A DNA stretch of 64,000 bases from sequence record OR896822.1; one strand, given 5' to 3'. Of this stretch, positions 15,329 through 48,571 are shown one piece after another. The position numbers and the translations under genes were made by a program. How positions within the stretch are numbered: the stretch's first letter is position 1; each line of letters begins with the position of its first letter. The notes under the pieces are model-generated. The model saw only the letters and a program-made list of their open reading frames with translations. It did not search any database and was not told the origin of the DNA. This DNA is from Salmonella phage vB_SenS-3.

Positions 15329-15868
15329 TTATACCTTAAGTTTCTGAAGAGCCTTACACATTTCAAGATCTGGACTAAATTCCAGCATATAGCTTATAGC
15401 ATTTAAATCTTGAAGGTTTATTCCAGTCCTGCCATTTACAATAACAGTAGGAAATTGGTACATCATAGCACCAGCATCATCTAGGACGCACCAATGCTTG
15501 AGCTTATGTTTTTCTACGAAACGTAAGACAGAATTACCTCGAGATAAACCACCTCCAGTAAAATCTGTTGTACCAAGAAAACGATCGATCAAACCGAGTC
15601 CGGTCATAATCTGAACGTTCTCCATTTCATTTCGTACAGAAAACCATGAAGATACCCCAACAATCATTATTGGGGATGGCTTAAGAAAGTTCTGAAAAGC
15701 CTGGAGTAATGGCTTGTAAACCCAATCACCACCAAAGAATAGCTTTTCACTATCTGGAGCATGATGGTGAGAGATGCTCGAATTGAGCACCCCATCAATA
15801 TCCGGGAAAATCACAGGAGTATTACTTATTTCCACCAGTAGCATCCCACGTCCAGACTTTAACTTCAT
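15329..15868 (-). CDS. HAD-superfamily hydrolase-like protein (putative phosphatase/nucleotidase)
   Basis: 179 aa; N-terminal IFPDIDGVL resembles HAD motif I (DxDG); VLDDAG near C-terminus. Confidence 0.5.
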   Translation of the reverse strand: MKLKSGRGMLLVEISNTPVIFPDIDGVLNSSISHHHAPDSEKLFFGGDWVYKPLLQAFQNFLKPSPIMIVGVSSWFSVRNEMENVQIMTGLGLIDRFLGTTDFTGGGLSRGNSVLRFVEKHKLKHWCVLDDAGAMMYQFPTVIVNGRTGINLQDLNAISYMLEFSPDLEMCKALQKLKV

Positions 15869-16007: not shown

Positions 16008-16170
16008 ATTCTCCCTCCTTAATAAGGAACTCTTTCCATTCTGCTGTATCCTCATAGATAACGCAGAAATCATCACTCTTCCATGAGAAGTCATCAGTAG
16101 CAAATTCGAAACGGTAGCACCAACTACCGTCTGGCCATACTAAAAGATCACACATGCTTTTCTGGGACAT
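15988..16170 (-). CDS. hypothetical protein
   Basis: start trimmed to ATG after RBS GGAGGG; acidic C-terminus. Confidence 0.4.
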   Translation of the reverse strand: MSQKSMCDLLVWPDGSWCYRFEFATDDFSWKSDDFCVIYEDTAEWKEFLIKEGEYGEEDF

Positions 16171-16999
16171 AAATATTTCCCTCCATAAAAGCTTCAACTT
16201 GATCAATAAAGTGTTTATTACCAAAAACTTCGGCAGCTCCAGCACGCCATACAGTAACACCACGTTTCTCATATTCAAGCTGTTCATCATAGCGAACTTG
16301 AGGGTTAACAACCATCATCTTAGTTCCACGACATACAGCAGGGAATAGTTCCCAGTTGAAGTCAATCACTTGGTTGCTACAACCTACTACAATAACCATA
16401 TCATTGCTAGTAAGTGTATCAAACAGGTTAATCTGACCCATATACCACGGAGCCGTCTCACCAAAGAATGTTACGTTTGGTTTTACCCATTCGTAATCTT
16501 CAGGAACAATTGCAGTGTATCCAACATCTTCGATGATTTGATTGCGACCCCGACGATAGATCACCTCTTTCAAGTACCCGTGAGCGTGAATGATTTCATC
16601 ACGAGGGATACCAGCACGTTCCAGAAGGTCATCAACGTTAGTAGTGAAGTTCTTCACGCTATCCGCACCATAACGCTGGAACCATTCTGCAATTCGCAGA
16701 TGGGCAATGTTAGGCTCAACAGTCTGTAATTCCTGACGACGCATGTTGTAGAACTCATGAGTCTTGAGATACAGATCGTTACCCTCTTCATCAATGCCAG
16801 GGAAACGAGCACTGAAGTAGTTAGGATCATCTTCACCACAGAAGCGACGGAAGCCAGCTTCAAAGTTAGGCAAGCTACATACTTCCTCTAGATCGTACTC
16901 ATCCCACAAAGATTTTCCACTAGCAGTATCAGTACGGAAAGCACGAACACCACTATCAACACTTAAACCAGCACCACTAACAATGATTAGTCTACGCAT
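16148..16999 (-). CDS. Sir2-family (sirtuin-like) NAD-dependent protein
   Basis: 283 aa; sirtuin-like motifs SGAGLSVDSGVRAFR, TTNVDDL, IHAHG, VTFFGE. Confidence 0.75.
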   Translation of the reverse strand: MRRLIIVSGAGLSVDSGVRAFRTDTASGKSLWDEYDLEEVCSLPNFEAGFRRFCGEDDPNYFSARFPGIDEEGNDLYLKTHEFYNMRRQELQTVEPNIAHLRIAEWFQRYGADSVKNFTTNVDDLLERAGIPRDEIIHAHGYLKEVIYRRGRNQIIEDVGYTAIVPEDYEWVKPNVTFFGETAPWYMGQINLFDTLTSNDMVIVVGCSNQVIDFNWELFPAVCRGTKMMVVNPQVRYDEQLEYEKRGVTVWRAGAAEVFGNKHFIDQVEAFMEGNIYVPEKHV

Positions 17000-17754: not shown

Positions 17755-19629
17755 TTATTTAGCGCGAATGTCTTGATGTTTCACTCGACCCATAACCTCA
17801 TGTTGTTTACCTGGGTTAAACGGACGAGCACCTGGATTTCCAAGATATCCACAAACTCGACGAGTTACCTCAAGAGTCTCAGGATCATGATTGCCACAAA
17901 TTGGGCATTTGAAACCATCCTCAGAAGCTATAGTTTCACCCAAGAACCCACATTCCCCACAAGAGTCTACTGGAGTATTAATACCGAAGTAATGAACTTT
18001 ACTTGCAGCATAGTTAATAACCCATTCCAGTGCATCAGGGAATCGTTTCATATCAGGCAATTCCACATAGGAAATGCACCCACCAGAAGCAATTGGGGTA
18101 AAGTTAGACTCATAATCGAACTTCACGTTCGGAGCAACCTTACGCTCCACATCAAGGTGATGAGAGTTAGTGTAATATCCTTTAACCAGAATATCTTCAT
18201 GCTCTGGGAAATACTCACGATCTAGACGACAGAAGCGATCACATAGAGATTCAGATGGTGTAGCATACAGACTATACCCTAATTGAGTCTCTTCCTTCTT
18301 CTGATCAGCACGATCACGCATGTATTGTAGCACACGTTGAACGAACTTGATACAGGATTCAGACATTGTATCTACATCTTTACCAAACATGAACTGTAAC
18401 ATTTCGTGGCAGCCAATATATCCTAGAGATACAGAAGCACGCTTGTAGAAATGATCAAATACATATTCATCTGGCCCCAGACGTAATCCAAAGGCTCCTG
18501 ACATATAGAGGATGGGCGCAGCTTTAGCTTGAATGTACTTTAAGCGATCAACCCTCCACTCCAATGCTTTTAACGCGGTATCCACACGCAGCTCAAGCAG
18601 ATCGAAGAATAGATCAATATTACCTTCCGCTTCGATAGCAATTCGAGGTAGGTTTACAGAAACAACGCCTAAGTTGTTACGACCAGAAGTTTCACCATCT
18701 TCCGCAGCAGCCAGGAATGAACGACAGCCCATAGAGACTTTGTAGTCTCCCGTAACTTCTACAACCTTATCATAACTGATGTAGTCAGGATACATACGTT
18801 CAGCAGTACATTTCATAGCTAACTTCTTGATATCATAGTTAACATCACCAGGTTTCATGTTTACGCCATCACGCAAAACAAATACCAGTTTAGGGAAGAT
18901 AGCTGTACGTTTATTGATACCCAAACCATCCATACGCACTTCTAGGATTGCTTTCTGTACAAGACGTGCTTCCCAAGAAGTTCCTAGACCAAACCCAAAG
19001 GTAATAAACGGACTTTGACCATTAGAGTTGAACATCGTATTGATTTCATACTCCAGGCCCTGACAGGCATCGTAAACTTCTTTCTCAGTCATTTCCGTAG
19101 CCATTACAGATGCTTTAGCTTCATCCTTAGTCCAACGCTTTGCAAACGCATGATTCTTATCATAAGACTTACGAACATAAGGAGCCAATACTTCATCTAA
19201 TCGGTCTACAGAAGTACCCCCATATTGATGTGAACTAACCTGAGTGATAATCTGAGCTGTGATAGCAGCCGCAGTAGTAATAGAGTTTGGTGTACTGATT
19301 TCAGCATTACCAACCTTCATACCATTCTTCAACATATCTTCCAAAGCAACCAGGCAACAGTTAGTCATACCTAACGCAGCGTAATCAGCATCATGGAAGT
19401 GAATATCACCAATCATGTGAGCATTTCGAATCTGGATTGGCATTTCTTCCAGAATCAGATGTTTACTCAATTCCCCTGCAAGCATGTCCCTTTGTGTAGG
19501 GAAACGTTCGCTTGGTTTGTTCGCATTATTAAAGAGTAGCTCTTCATCTGCTGATCCTTCGATAATTTCTTTGCAGTTTCGAATTAAGGACTGCACTCCT
19601 TTATACTTTAGTTCTTCATTGCGATTCAT
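17755..19629 (-). CDS. nrdD: anaerobic ribonucleoside-triphosphate reductase (class III RNR)
   Basis: 624 aa; C-terminal glycyl-radical motif RRVCGYLGNP and Cys-rich zinc ribbon CGECGF...CPICG. Confidence 0.9.
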   Translation of the reverse strand: MNRNEELKYKGVQSLIRNCKEIIEGSADEELLFNNANKPSERFPTQRDMLAGELSKHLILEEMPIQIRNAHMIGDIHFHDADYAALGMTNCCLVALEDMLKNGMKVGNAEISTPNSITTAAAITAQIITQVSSHQYGGTSVDRLDEVLAPYVRKSYDKNHAFAKRWTKDEAKASVMATEMTEKEVYDACQGLEYEINTMFNSNGQSPFITFGFGLGTSWEARLVQKAILEVRMDGLGINKRTAIFPKLVFVLRDGVNMKPGDVNYDIKKLAMKCTAERMYPDYISYDKVVEVTGDYKVSMGCRSFLAAAEDGETSGRNNLGVVSVNLPRIAIEAEGNIDLFFDLLELRVDTALKALEWRVDRLKYIQAKAAPILYMSGAFGLRLGPDEYVFDHFYKRASVSLGYIGCHEMLQFMFGKDVDTMSESCIKFVQRVLQYMRDRADQKKEETQLGYSLYATPSESLCDRFCRLDREYFPEHEDILVKGYYTNSHHLDVERKVAPNVKFDYESNFTPIASGGCISYVELPDMKRFPDALEWVINYAASKVHYFGINTPVDSCGECGFLGETIASEDGFKCPICGNHDPETLEVTRRVCGYLGNPGARPFNPGKQHEVMGRVKHQDIRAK

Positions 19630-26524: not shown

Positions 26525-27103
26525 ATGACAGCCATAGTAGCATTTAAATATAAAGATAAAGTATACTTAGCTGGTGATCGTATGGGTTCTAATGGCTATA
26601 CGAAACTGCTGGTTAAAAATCCGAAAGTATTCAAAATCTCTGATGATTTGTACTTCGGATACACTAGTTCCTTCTACATGGGACAATTACTAGAGCATAG
26701 CTTTACTGTACCACCACGTTTAGCAGATATTTCCGATGATAAATATTTATATACGGAAATAGTACCTAAATTACGTGATATGTTTAACCAGAAAGATTTT
26801 GGCGAAAAGAAAAATGAAAAATATGCTGAACCTAATCTGGGACAATTTATTATGCTCTACAAAGGAAGAATCTTTATTTTCCAATCTAATGCTTCTATTC
26901 TAGAAGTTGAATATGCCGGTGTAGGCTGTGGAGGAGAAGATGTACTTTCCAGTATTCGTACAGGTTTAGCTATTGCGGATTGTCGAGCCACAGATTTAGA
27001 TGTAGATGATATATTTGAAATCATTGATCTGGCTTTTACGCATTGTGCAGATTATATGTGTGGTGTATCTTCCCAACATGATGTTTTAGTAATTGGAGAA
27101 TAA
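26525..27103 (+). CDS. hypothetical protein
   Basis: 192 aa ORF with RBS. Confidence 0.55.
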   Translation: MTAIVAFKYKDKVYLAGDRMGSNGYTKLLVKNPKVFKISDDLYFGYTSSFYMGQLLEHSFTVPPRLADISDDKYLYTEIVPKLRDMFNQKDFGEKKNEKYAEPNLGQFIMLYKGRIFIFQSNASILEVEYAGVGCGGEDVLSSIRTGLAIADCRATDLDVDDIFEIIDLAFTHCADYMCGVSSQHDVLVIGE

Positions 27104-41617: not shown

Positions 41618-41620
41618 ATT

Positions 41621-42202
41621 ATGCACGGAATATCCTTACCCATTCCAGGGTTTGAGGAGTACTTAGTAAGTTTGGATGGGTTAGTATTTAGTATCAAATC
41701 AAACAAAATACTAACCCCAATAACCAGTAATTACGGATACTTATCTATACGTCTCCATAAAAATGGTCAACAGAGAAATACCGGTGTACATAGGATTTTA
41801 GCATGTGCATTTAAGAAATTACCAAGTCTAGACTCTGAACTAGAAGTTGACCATATTAACACAGACATTACTTATTGGGGTCTTAATAACTTACAAGTGC
41901 TCACAAAAGAGCAGCATCTAGAAAAGACTTTAAAAGATAAAGGATTTAGTAAACTAAACCATGATAATTGTTGTAAGGATTGTGGTAAAGCTATTTCTTT
42001 AAAAGCTGAAAAATGTCAGGAGTGCTCTTCACATAAACCAAAAGATATCTCTATAACTAAAGAAATAATCGAGGTTACAGTAAGAGAGCTAGGCTGGTCA
42101 GGTGCAGGGAGAAAGTTAAATTATTCAGATAATGGGTTGCGTAAAAGATACACTTCTTTAGGAGGCAATCCTAAAGAACTTAAAAAGTTAAAGGTACTAT
42201 AG
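41621..42202 (+). CDS. HNH homing endonuclease (NUMOD-like N-terminus)
   Basis: 193 aa; motifs HRILACAF...VDHINTD...NNLQ; Cys-rich C-terminal region; stop codon overlaps 5' end of tRNA-Asp. Confidence 0.7.
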   Translation: MHGISLPIPGFEEYLVSLDGLVFSIKSNKILTPITSNYGYLSIRLHKNGQQRNTGVHRILACAFKKLPSLDSELEVDHINTDITYWGLNNLQVLTKEQHLEKTLKDKGFSKLNHDNCCKDCGKAISLKAEKCQECSSHKPKDISITKEIIEVTVRELGWSGAGRKLNYSDNGLRKRYTSLGGNPKELKKLKVL

Positions 42203-42267
42203 TCTAACGGTTAGGATACTCCCCTGTCACGGGAGAGGTAGGGTTTCGATTACCCTTAGTACCGCCA
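42193..42267 (+). tRNA. tRNA-Asp (anticodon GTC)
   Basis: acceptor GGTACTA/TAGTACC perfect; anticodon stem CTCCC/GGGAG, loop CTGTCAC; T-arm AGGGT-TTCGATT-ACCCT; CCA encoded. Confidence 0.85.
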
Positions 42268-42273
42268 AATTAT

Positions 42274-42350
42274 ACATCCATAGCTCAACTGGTCAGAGCT
42301 ACCGCCTCTTAAGCGGAGGGTTGAAGGTTCAAGTCCTTCTGGGAGTACCA
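42274..42350 (+). tRNA. tRNA-Lys (anticodon CTT)
   Basis: D-stem GCTC/GAGC; anticodon loop CTCTTAA; T-arm GAAGG-TTCAAGT-CCTTC; acceptor with one A-A mismatch; CCA encoded. Confidence 0.65.
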
Positions 42351-45199: not shown

Positions 45200-45524
45200 A
45201 ATCTTGAAGTATGCCGGAATCGGTAGACGGGGCTTCCTAAAGGGCGTAAGGGGAACATCCACTCCTCATAAGATACCCGAAAACGAGGCTGAGATAACTG
45301 GTCTATCTCGTGAAGGTTCGAGTCCTTCTGCTTCTTGATATTCATCAATGGCTCAAAGTGTAACGGTGCTATTTGATGCTCTTAGTAAGACTTTCCCGAC
45401 ATGCGTTCGGGAGTAAGCTGCTAAGGCTAGAGTAGAAGAGTTTCGGAGAGCCGCCACAATTGAAGTCTTTAGAATGGGTATCGCCCTTTAGCCCCTCCGA
45501 AAGGGATAACTAGAGATTTCAATT

Positions 45525-46558: not shown

Positions 46559-46632
46559 GCTCCTAAAGCATTGCTGGCGATGCAGTTGCCTTGTAAGCAT
46601 CTGAACCGGGTTCGATTCCTGGTGGGAGCACC
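46559..46632 (+). tRNA. tRNA-Thr (anticodon TGT)
   Basis: acceptor GCTCCTA/TGGGAGC; D-stem GCAT/ATGC; anticodon loop CTTGTAA; T-arm CCGGG-TTCGATT-CCTGG; CCA encoded. Confidence 0.75.
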
Positions 46633-46647
46633 AAATTTAAAAATTCA

Positions 46648-46677
46648 TTTGCCTTCTCTCTTATTTCTTGTTATAAT
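46648..46677 (+). promoter_or_regulatory. sigma70-type early promoter
   Basis: -35 TTGCCT, 18 bp, -10 TATAAT, conserved leader. Confidence 0.55.
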
Positions 46678-46707
46678 ATTTATATAAATTAATGAGAGGG
46701 AAACCAA

Positions 46708-47001
46708 ATGAAACGTTATCTTTCTGTCGTATTCCAAACGGGTGGTCAACGCTACACTTATGAATTTCCTGAGTCCTGGAAAATTAAAGAAGGTGATCAA
46801 GTTGTTGTATTAACACCTCGTGAAGGCTTCAAAGTAGTAACGGTTAAACAAGTATTTCCAAAAGATCACGAACCATCTAAGTCTATTCAGTACAAGATGA
46901 TTCATGGTCTAGTTCGTAAAGTACCACGAACTGAGGTAGAAGTAGATAAGACTGGTGAAGCTAAATACCAGTATACTTCTTACTTAGACGAGTTGTTATA
47001 A
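46708..47001 (+). CDS. hypothetical protein
   Basis: 97 aa ORF with conserved leader RBS. Confidence 0.5.
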   Translation: MKRYLSVVFQTGGQRYTYEFPESWKIKEGDQVVVLTPREGFKVVTVKQVFPKDHEPSKSIQYKMIHGLVRKVPRTEVEVDKTGEAKYQYTSYLDELL

Positions 47002-47454: not shown

Positions 47455-47821
47455 CTAAACAGAGGATCAGATCATTGTACCAGATCCTGCTGAGAAGAGA
47501 GTCCACATTCTATAAATGGCCGGGCGTGACAGCAGGAAGTAGACTGCAACTCCATGCTATACAGGAGTATAAATGTAGAAGCTAGGGCTTTAGATAGCCA
47601 TTGTCTTAGCGTGAGCAATCACGTAGTTGCAACAGACCAGGGGATAGCAACGTTAAAATCAAAGCTCCTGTGCTTATTAAACTGAATGGGACTATCAATC
47701 CACAAGCCGGACTACGAGCGATTATCGGGTATTCACTTAATAAGCAAGCCTGCCTTCCAGTTTTTATCTTGCTTCTGGGTTAACAAAAAGCTGAGCCAAA
47801 TTCTAGCATCAGGGAGATCTA

Positions 47822-48190
47822 ATGAAAGCATATCAAAGTCTTAAGTCTGGCGTAATTAACCTTGTTCATAACAATCAGATCATTCAACTATATTCTAAAG
47901 ATGGTGAACTTAAACAGAAAGTTCTAGTCGAAGATCTAGAAGGTATCACACCTCACTTTGACCCTGAGGCCTTTCGCATTGTAGATGTGGAAGTGATTCC
48001 TCAAGTCGAGGGTGGTCAGCACCTAAATGTCAACGTGTTAAGCCGTGATCAGCTTTTGGATGCACAGAAACATCCTGAAAAATATCCTCAGTTGACCATC
48101 CGTGTCTCTGGATATGCTGTTCGATTTAACGCATTGACGCGTGAACAACAGAACGACGTTATTAGTCGTACATTTACTCAGGCGATATAA
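47822..48190 (+). CDS. grcA: GrcA/YfiD-like autonomous glycyl radical cofactor protein
   Basis: C-terminal [12 protein letters not shown]...[37 protein letters not shown] closely matches E. coli GrcA and the PFL C-terminal glycyl-radical domain. Confidence 0.8.
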
Positions 48191-48271: not shown

Positions 48272-48571
48272 GTGGATCGAGCATTAAGACGCCATCACCG
48301 GCAACGTGTGAAAAACAATCGCAAAAAGTATTGGACAGTCTTCCCACATGAAGAAAGTCCTAAGCGGTTAGGCATTATCACTACCACTCCTTGCATCTGT
48401 TCTTGTTGGATGTGTGGGAATCCTCGCAAATACTATAAGAATAGTAAAGCAGGTATGAAAATCTCGGAGATTAAAAAGATGGATGCAATGATTATGGGCA
48501 TCACCTTTACAGGCGGTATCTCTGATGAATTCGACGGTTTTGTAACTCAGGATATTGTCGAAATTATCTAA
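48272..48571 (+). CDS. hypothetical protein
   Basis: 99 aa ORF, basic N-terminus. Confidence 0.45.
   Translation: MDRALRRHHRQRVKNNRKKYWTVFPHEESPKRLGIITTTPCICSCWMCGNPRKYYKNSKAGMKISEIKKMDAMIMGITFTGGISDEFDGFVTQDIVEII

What the first reader, a model, noticed from the sequence alone, without database searches (positions are those of the whole stretch)
47822..48190. GrcA-like spare glycyl-radical domain encoded by the phage
The C-terminal 60 residues are near-identical in pattern to E. coli GrcA/YfiD ([10 protein letters not shown] glycyl-radical loop). GrcA restores oxygen-damaged pyruvate formate-lyase. The phage also encodes the glycyl-radical enzyme NrdD, so it may protect or boost anaerobic metabolism (PFL, possibly NrdD) during infection under microaerobic gut conditions.
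Basis: partly seen in the sequence, partly recalled or inferred. Interest (0 to 1): 0.75.

Follow-up and report, generated by a model that had tools for sequence, protein, structure and literature searches.

The report
Phage copy of GrcA spare part

Summary
The ORF at 47822-48190 (+) is real and encodes 122 aa. Its C-terminal 60 residues are 80% identical to E. coli GrcA and 78% identical to the PflB C-terminus. They include the exact PFL activase substrate heptapeptide RVSGYAV, with the radical glycine at Gly97.

The window comes from a T5-like Salmonella/E. coli phage (Epseptimavirus). An identical protein is deposited for Salmonella phage vaffelhjerte, the T5 orthologue is T5.056 (93%), and about 438 of about 444 close T5-like records carry the gene. 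It is 52% identical over its full length to T4-like vs.6, which I take to be Y06I. Y06I and YfiD are the two biochemically validated "spare part" proteins for oxygen-cleaved PFL (Wagner 2001, via PMC8683613).

The gene is under strong purifying selection (dN/dS 0.07). It lies in an early operon behind a conserved T5 P11-type promoter and has no FNR box.

NrdD is indeed encoded in the window, but the protein shows no similarity to NrdD's radical domain, so direct NrdD rescue is unsupported. A plausible indirect link is that PFL makes formate, the reductant of this formate-type NrdD. No activase is encoded, so host PflA and NrdG would be needed.

What is particular to T5-likes is a strongly diverged N-terminal half. 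Verdict: interpretation supported, already known, low interest.

The parts
47822..48190 (+). CDS for the 122-aa GrcA-like autonomous glycyl-radical protein (orthologue of T5.056 and T4 vs.6/Y06I)
   Evidence: ORF list. Pfam, NCBIfam and PHROG hits. 100% identical to the vaffelhjerte_121 protein and 93% to T5.056. dN/dS 0.068 against T5.
47811..47816 (+). Shine-Dalgarno sequence AGGGAG, 5 nt upstream of the ATG
   Evidence: Read directly from the sequence.
47822..48001 (+). N-terminal half (residues 1-60). It is T5-clade-specific in sequence and predicted to be beta-rich. It corresponds in position to the YfiD 1-60 region needed for cPFL binding and efficient activation.
   Evidence: hhalign gives E=5.8e-4 against T4-like/jumbo-phage N-halves and no detectable match to bacterial GrcA N-halves. 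dN/dS is 0.11. AF2 strands have pLDDT 83-89. The role of YfiD 1-60 comes from PMC8683613.
48002..48187 (+). C-terminal PFL-type glycyl-radical domain (residues 61-122), equivalent to GrcA 66-127 and PflB 698-759
   Evidence: Foldseek's top hits are 6OWR (YfiD) and 2PFL. dN/dS is 0.023.
48101..48121 (+). RVSGYAV heptapeptide (residues 94-100). The radical glycine Gly97 is encoded at 48110-48112.
   Evidence: Sequence. The column is invariant in 59 homologues. RVSGYAV is a competent PFL-AE substrate (PMC10665898).
46649..46677 (+). Sigma-70 early promoter (TTGCCT-17-TATAAT with an extended TG), homologous to the annotated T5 promoter P11. It is the likely start of the transcription unit that runs through two small ORFs, tRNA-Ile and tRNA-Met to this gene.
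   Evidence: T5 annotation. 97% identity to the T5 P11 region. Promoter scan 10/12. That this gene is co-transcribed from it is inferred.
17755..19629 (-). Phage NrdD (class III, formate-type anaerobic ribonucleotide reductase). This is context: a possible consumer of PFL-derived formate, not a docking target of the GrcA-like protein.
   Evidence: Pfam NRDD E=1e-172. 54% identical to E. coli NrdD, with the Cys175, Met382, Cys384 and Gly681 equivalents kept. No similarity to the GrcA-like protein.

Best explanation
The gene encodes a phage version of the autonomous glycyl-radical cofactor GrcA/YfiD. It is made early in infection from a host sigma-70-type phage promoter, independently of the host's oxygen regulator FNR. 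When oxygen cleaves host pyruvate formate-lyase (PflB, and possibly TdcE) at Gly734, the protein's C-terminal domain replaces the destroyed radical loop and C-terminal helix. Host PflA installs a new radical on Gly97 through the RVSGYAV loop, and PFL activity is restored. This keeps acetyl-CoA/ATP and formate production going in microaerobic, infected cells. Because the phage's own NrdD is of the formate-dependent type, sustained formate supply would also feed anaerobic dNTP synthesis for phage DNA.

Shown here: the domain identity, the motif, orthology to the T4 gene, conservation, selection, the promoter context, and the absence of a phage activase. Inferred: the rescue activity of this particular orthologue, its activation by host PflA, and the formate link to NrdD.
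For: 1. Domain and motif. Pfam Gly_radical. GrcA, GrcA3 and GrcA2 are the top NCBIfam models. The closest solved structures by sequence are GrcA 6OWR and PflB, and by predicted fold 6OWR and 2PFL.
2. All 31 columns that are invariant in 59 homologues, including R94-V95-S96-G97-Y98-A99, are present. RVSGYAV alone is a PFL-AE substrate (PMC10665898).
3. Full-length homology to T4-like vs.6 (52%, E=2e-39). YfiD and Y06I are the two validated PFL spare parts (PMC8683613).
4. dN/dS is 0.068 overall, 0.11 for the N-half and 0.023 for the C-half.
5. Present in about 438 close T5-like records, against 444 with the DNA polymerase.
6. The T5 P11-type early promoter is conserved upstream, and there is no FNR box within 2 mismatches upstream of the gene.
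7. No PflA or NrdG homologue in the window or in the first 45 kb of the near-identical vaffelhjerte genome, which the window overlaps and continues from.
8. The phage NrdD is 54% identical to the formate-dependent E. coli NrdD with the Met382/Cys384/Cys175 equivalents. Formate as reductant comes from PMC4493059, citing Mulliez 1995.
Against: No experiment exists for any T5-like orthologue.

The protein scores below NCBIfam's curated GrcA cutoff (117.8 against 170 bits), because only residues 54-121 match.

Its N-terminal half is not detectably similar to bacterial GrcA N-halves (hhalign E=0.4). In YfiD that half is what gives measurable binding to cleaved PFL and about 4-fold better activation (PMC8683613).

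13 of the 60 C-terminal residues differ from PflB.

The formate-NrdD coupling is reasoning, not data. I found no paper in the held library that tests phage fitness with or without this gene.
Confidence: 0.8

Rival explanations
1. The protein is a spare radical domain for the phage's own NrdD. It would replace NrdD's oxygen-cleaved C-terminus.
For: NrdD is encoded in the same genome, is also a glycyl-radical enzyme, and is oxygen-sensitive. PMC8683613 speculates that spare parts might exist for other glycyl-radical enzymes.
Against: BLASTP finds no similarity between the two proteins (best E=14). The radical loop here is the PFL-type RVSGYAV, whereas NrdD has RRVCGYLG preceded by a Cys-rich metal site. 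The C-terminal domain is 78-80% identical to PflB and GrcA. NrdD is activated by NrdG, not PflA (established knowledge).
Confidence: 0.03
2. The protein is a modulator rather than a repair part. With its T5-specific N-terminal half it binds PFL, PflA or another host glycyl-radical enzyme (TdcE, PflD/YbiW-type) to redirect or throttle host fermentation, or it titrates the activase.
For: The N-terminal half is strongly diverged from bacterial GrcA yet is under purifying selection (dN/dS 0.11). It is also the region that determines partner binding in YfiD. Expression is decoupled from FNR.
Against: The whole radical domain, including residues with no role other than catalysis inside the PFL barrel, is conserved at dN/dS 0.023 and is invariant across phage and bacterial homologues. 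A pure decoy would not need this. The T4 homologue restores activity (PMC8683613). The intermediate N-halves of T4-like and jumbo phages link the T5 form to bacterial GrcA, and AF2 predicts similar beta-rich N-halves for both.
Confidence: 0.1
3. The gene is a captured host fragment without function, a relic of recombination with grcA or pflB.
For: T4-like vs.6 shows that exchange with host grcA does occur: its last 185 nt are 98% identical to E. coli grcA.
Against: The window gene is only 74-75% identical to grcA and pflB at the DNA level, and third codon positions are about 50% identical. The acquisition is therefore old, yet the ORF is intact, is a near-universal core gene of T5-like phages, and has dN/dS 0.07.
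Confidence: 0.02

Closest known systems
Bacteriophage T4 Y06I (gene vs.6), autonomous glycyl-radical cofactor (Wagner et al. 2001, as cited in PMC8683613)
   Same: Phage-encoded and about 120 aa, with the same two-part architecture. Alignable over its full length (52% identity). Identical radical loop. Located among early genes. The phage also encodes NrdD.
   Different: The T4-type C-terminal domain is 60/60 identical to E. coli GrcA and 98% identical at the DNA level, which indicates recent exchange with the host. The T5-type domain is an old, independent lineage roughly equidistant from GrcA and PflB. The T5-type N-half is only marginally similar to the T4 type (E=5.8e-4). T4 carries its own NrdG activase, and the T5-like lineage carries none. 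The equation vs.6 = Y06I is my deduction from vs.6 being the only such gene in T4-type records.
E. coli GrcA/YfiD (PDB 6OWR; NCBIfam TIGR04365)
   Same: Size, domain order, 80% identity over the radical domain, the RVSGYAV loop, and the predicted fold.
   Different: The N-terminal 50 residues do not align, and the score is below the curated equivalog cutoff. Host grcA is FNR-regulated (my knowledge), whereas the phage copy sits behind a constitutive early phage promoter with no FNR box.
C-terminus of pyruvate formate-lyase PflB (residues 698-759; PDB 1H16/2PFL)
   Same: 47/60 identical residues, the same radical loop and C-terminal helix.
   Different: The phage protein lacks the 690-residue catalytic barrel, so it cannot be a formate-lyase on its own. 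Database names such as 'pyruvate formate lyase' or '2-ketobutyrate formate-lyase' for this gene are misnomers.

Membership tests
Autonomous glycyl-radical cofactor (GrcA/YfiD/Y06I spare-part proteins) | Small stand-alone protein (about 14 kDa) consisting of a glycyl-radical domain without the glycyl-radical-enzyme catalytic barrel | tested here: met
   122 aa. The Gly_radical domain occupies residues 62-103 of the Pfam model end, and there is no other domain.
Autonomous glycyl-radical cofactor (GrcA/YfiD/Y06I spare-part proteins) | PFL-type radical loop RVSGYAV with the radical glycine, plus the flanking beta-strand and C-terminal helix that duplicate PflB 693-759 | tested here: met
   The exact heptapeptide lies at residues 94-100. 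47/60 residues are identical to PflB and 48/60 to GrcA. The AF2 model matches 6OWR and 2PFL.
Autonomous glycyl-radical cofactor (GrcA/YfiD/Y06I spare-part proteins) | Score above the curated NCBIfam equivalog threshold (TIGR04365, 170 bits) | tested here: not met
   117.8 bits, with only residues 54-121 aligned. The shortfall comes from the diverged N-half. It also scores below the GrcA3 (115.6 against 158) and GrcA2 (89.9 against 145) cutoffs.
Autonomous glycyl-radical cofactor (GrcA/YfiD/Y06I spare-part proteins) | N-terminal ~60-residue region homologous to that of YfiD (needed for cPFL binding and efficient activation) | tested here: inconclusive
   There is no direct similarity to bacterial N-halves (E=0.4). 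Similarity to T4-like/jumbo phage N-halves is marginal (E=5.8e-4), and those in turn match bacterial ones (E=1.5e-6, prob 90%). Length and predicted beta-rich topology are similar.
Autonomous glycyl-radical cofactor (GrcA/YfiD/Y06I spare-part proteins) | Radical installation by PFL activase and restoration of activity to oxygen-cleaved PFL | not testable with these tools
   This is biochemistry. It has been shown only for YfiD and T4 Y06I (PMC8683613).
PHROG 1209 (phage GrcA-like proteins, function field empty) | Full-length match to the phage family profile | tested here: met
   E=1.1e-46, residues 1-122 against profile positions 1-121 of 121.
Pyruvate formate-lyase / formate C-acetyltransferase (as the gene is often annotated) | About 760-aa ten-stranded barrel with the catalytic Cys418/Cys419 | tested here: not met
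   Only profile positions 683-743 of 744 are matched, at 84 bits against a cutoff of 994. The protein is 122 aa.

The most novel reading that the evidence does not exclude
The T5-clade N-terminal half, which is conserved within the clade but unrecognisable against bacterial GrcA, may have been retuned. The phage protein might engage PFL or PflA differently from host GrcA, for example docking pre-emptively or onto Salmonella/E. coli PflB and TdcE alike. Its real selective value might be to secure formate for the activase-less, formate-dependent phage NrdD. That would make GrcA plus NrdD a two-gene phage module for anaerobic DNA precursor supply that depends on host PflA and NrdG.
Probability: 0.12. 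Interest if true: 0.45.

Novelty: already known. Interest (0 to 1): 0.2.

Why it matters
Phage-encoded GrcA is a textbook-level example of an auxiliary metabolic gene that repairs a host enzyme. It was demonstrated for T4 in 2001 and is widely, if inconsistently, annotated in T5-like genomes, so finding it here adds no new kind of biology.

Three practical points remain:
- Public names for this gene are inconsistent and often wrong. They include 'pyruvate formate lyase', 'acetyltransferase-related' and 'ribonucleotide reductase subunit', and they could be harmonised.
- No T5-like orthologue, with its diverged N-half, has been tested.
- The fitness role of phage GrcA in the low-oxygen gut, and its possible coupling to formate-dependent NrdD, is still untested. 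T5-like phages, which are used in Salmonella and E. coli biocontrol, would be a convenient system for testing it.

Tried and rejected
- Direct NrdD rescue. BLASTP of the protein against the phage NrdD found nothing, so this was rejected.
- A phage-encoded activase. I ran tblastn of E. coli NrdG and PflA against the window plus the first 45 kb of the near-identical vaffelhjerte genome, and a CxxxCxxC motif scan. Neither found an activase. The only motif hit next to the gene is a 99-aa ORF of unknown function (phrog_4499), too small for a radical-SAM enzyme. A 22-residue NrdG hit (E=0.41) in the ORF after nrdD has no Pfam support.
- Oxygen regulation through FNR. There is no TTGAT-N4-ATCAA site within 2 mismatches in the 366 nt upstream, and window-wide counts equal chance.
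- A structured RNA or tRNA in the 366-nt spacer upstream. There was no Rfam hit and the fold z-score was 0.38.
- Recent capture from the host. The window gene is only about 75% identical to grcA and pflB DNA, so this is rejected here. It does hold for T4-like vs.6.
- A folded N-half as a phage-specific feature. The AF2 control on E. coli GrcA gives the same confident beta-rich N-half, so the prediction does not discriminate.
- Literature on T5-like GrcA. Searches found nothing specific, and Wagner 2001 itself is not held.

Full report
**Observation**

An AGGGAG Shine-Dalgarno sequence lies 5 nt upstream.

- Pfam finds a Gly_radical domain at residues 62-103 (66 bits against a cutoff of 22).
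- The best NCBIfam models are GrcA, GrcA3 and GrcA2, followed by the extreme C-terminus of formate C-acetyltransferase.
- The best solved relatives are E. coli GrcA (6OWR, E=3e-29) and PflB (E=2e-26).
- BLASTP against E. coli K-12 GrcA gives 55/74 identities, E=1e-37.
- Over the last 60 residues the protein is 48/60 identical to GrcA and 47/60 to PflB.
- The heptapeptide RVSGYAV occupies residues 94-100, with Gly97 encoded at 48110-48112.

**Where the window comes from**

The protein is 100% identical to gene 121 of Salmonella phage vaffelhjerte (Demerecviridae, Epseptimavirus) and 93% identical to T5.056 of phage T5. Those records annotate it as 'pyruvate formate lyase' and 'putative acetyltransferase-related protein' respectively.

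The window is collinear with vaffelhjerte. It holds the T5-type early region: DNA polymerase, NrdD, PhoH, NrdA/B, DHFR, ThyA and a cluster of 26 tRNA genes. The gene sits at the end of that cluster.

Among phage records, 438 carry the gene at 80% protein identity or more. That compares with 444 for the DNA polymerase and 390 for NrdD, plus divergent NrdD variants. It is therefore a core gene of T5-like phages.

**Relation to the known phage case**

In all, 1583 phage records have a homologue. The largest group is T4-like, where the gene is vs.6 and is often annotated 'autonomous glycyl radical cofactor GrcA'.

T4-type records contain a single such gene. vs.6 must therefore be the T4 protein Y06I that Knappe's group showed, together with YfiD, to reconstitute oxygen-fragmented PFL. 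Andorfer et al. 2021 state that these are the only two validated spare parts and that activation is by PFL-AE (PMC8683613). I could not read Wagner 2001 itself.

The window protein aligns with RB5 vs.6 over its whole length (52% identity, E=2e-39).

**Anatomy**

*C-terminal half (residues 61-122).* This half carries every column that is invariant across 59 phage and bacterial homologues. An AF2 model (pLDDT 76.8) gives helix, beta-hairpin and helix here. Foldseek places it on 6OWR and then on PFL structures.

*N-terminal half.* This is the distinctive part.
- It does not align with bacterial GrcA, which is why the protein misses the curated GrcA cutoff (117.8 against 170 bits).
- Local profile-profile comparison of N-halves alone shows that T4-like/jumbo phages match bacterial GrcA clearly (prob 90%, E=1.5e-6).
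- T5-like against T4-like/jumbo is marginal (E=5.8e-4), and T5-like against bacterial is undetectable (E=0.4).

Homology of the T5-type N-half is therefore only transitive. This matters because YfiD residues 1-60, although disordered in the free protein, are needed for measurable binding to cleaved PFL and for about 4-fold better radical installation (PMC8683613).

AF2 predicts a confident beta-rich N-half for the phage protein. It does the same for E. coli GrcA in a control run, so this is not a distinguishing feature.

**Selection and history**

Against T5.056, dS is 0.61 and dN/dS is 0.068. The N-half gives 0.11 and the C-half 0.023. Both halves are maintained by selection.

At the DNA level the radical domain is about 75% identical to both grcA and pflB, with third positions about 50% identical. 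This points to an old acquisition that is equidistant from the two host genes.

By contrast, the last 185 nt of RB5 vs.6 are 98% identical to E. coli K-12 grcA. The similarity starts exactly at the IEGGQ domain boundary and ends at the stop codon. That indicates a recent domain exchange in the T4 lineage.

**Expression context**

In T5, the annotated promoter P11 and a terminator after T5.055 bracket a unit containing T5.058, tRNA-Ile, T5.057, tRNA-Met, T5.056 and T5.055.

The P11 region is 97% conserved at window 46625-46715. It contains TTGCCT-17-TATAAT with an extended TG at 46649-46677.

There is no FNR-type box within 2 mismatches between the tRNA-Met and the gene. The phage copy therefore appears to be expressed as an early gene regardless of oxygen. 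Co-transcription from this promoter is an inference.

**Mechanism**

The most likely mechanism is the established GrcA one. Oxygen cleaves host PflB at Gly734. The phage protein supplies a fresh radical domain. Host PflA abstracts hydrogen from Gly97 in the RVSGYAV loop, a heptapeptide that is by itself a competent PFL-AE substrate (PMC10665898). PFL activity then resumes.

The phage must use host PflA. Neither a PflA nor an NrdG homologue is found in the window or in the first 45 kb of the near-identical vaffelhjerte genome, which the window overlaps and continues from. T4-like phages do encode NrdG.

**The NrdD idea**

NrdD is present at 17755-19629 (-), but the GrcA-like protein shares no detectable similarity with it. 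The radical loops also belong to different classes. Direct repair of NrdD is therefore unsupported.

An indirect link is plausible. The phage NrdD is 54% identical to E. coli NrdD and keeps the Cys175, Met382, Cys384 and Gly681 equivalents, which marks the formate-using type. Formate is the reductant of such enzymes (PMC4493059 citing Mulliez 1995 and Wei 2014), and PFL is the cell's formate source. Keeping PFL alive would keep phage anaerobic dNTP synthesis supplied. This is inference. I found no paper that tests it.

**Verdict**

However, this is a known kind of gene, biochemically validated in T4 and present and annotated in hundreds of T5-like genomes, including an identical deposited protein.

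What is unresolved is limited to the function of the diverged N-half, the fitness value during infection, and the possible formate coupling. Novelty: already known. Interest: low (0.2).

Noticed in passing
window 47456-47821: A 366-nt non-coding spacer separates tRNA-Met from the GrcA-like gene, where T5 has only 13 nt. It is conserved (89-99%) in Epseptimavirus genomes, and only its last ~154 nt occur in other T5-likes. It has no Rfam hit and no excess folding (z=0.38). A weak promoter-like site lies at 47780-47809.
   Followed up: partly
L003 4179-4363 (phage RB5 vs.6) versus L004 (E. coli K-12 grcA): The C-terminal 185 nt of the T4-like vs.6 gene are 98% identical to host grcA DNA. The similarity begins exactly at the IEGGQ domain boundary and ends at the stop codon, while the N-half is unrelated at the DNA level. 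This is a mosaic that implies recent phage-host exchange of the radical domain.
   Followed up: partly
window 17755-19629 (-) and the whole window; L007 1-45000: This T5-like lineage encodes NrdD but no recognisable NrdG (or PflA) activase, unlike T4-like, FelixO1-like and ICP1-like phages. Both of its glycyl-radical proteins would therefore depend on host activases.
   Followed up: partly
window 48272-48571 (+): The ORF immediately downstream (99 aa, GTG start; the T5.055 homologue by synteny, not aligned) has a basic N-terminus and a Cys cluster, CICSCWMCGNPRK, which fits CxxxCxxC. It matches only phrog_4499 (unknown function) and has no Pfam hit. It is too small for a radical-SAM enzyme.
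   Followed up: partly
window 45335-45348: A perfect FNR/CRP-type palindrome, TTGATATTCATCAA, lies in an intergenic stretch directly after a T-arm-like GGTTCGAGTCC. ARAGORN and Rfam call no tRNA there. About 0.1-0.2 such sites are expected by chance (my estimate), so this may be nothing.
   Followed up: partly
window 41621-42202 (+): A 193-aa ORF with NUMOD4 and HNH_3 motifs, a homing endonuclease, is inserted in the tRNA cluster. This segment (about 41619-42276) has no counterpart in phage vaffelhjerte.
   Followed up: partly
window 16148-16999 (-), 15329-15868 (-), 26525-27103 (+): A SIR2-family protein, a HAD_SAK_2 ('Swiss Army Knife' RNA-repair type HAD) protein and a proteasome-family protein are encoded near the nucleotide-metabolism genes.
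   Followed up: no
public records listed: The same gene is named very inconsistently in public records. Names include pyruvate formate lyase, 2-ketobutyrate formate-lyase, putative acetyltransferase-related protein, ribonucleotide reductase subunit (a 67-aa truncated call), glycyl radical cofactor, and hypothetical protein.
   Followed up: yes
models: AlphaFold2 predicts a confident beta-sheet for the N-terminal ~55 residues of both the phage protein and E. coli GrcA. NMR found YfiD 1-60 disordered in the free protein (PMC8683613). This is possibly a fold adopted only on binding cleaved PFL.
   Followed up: partly
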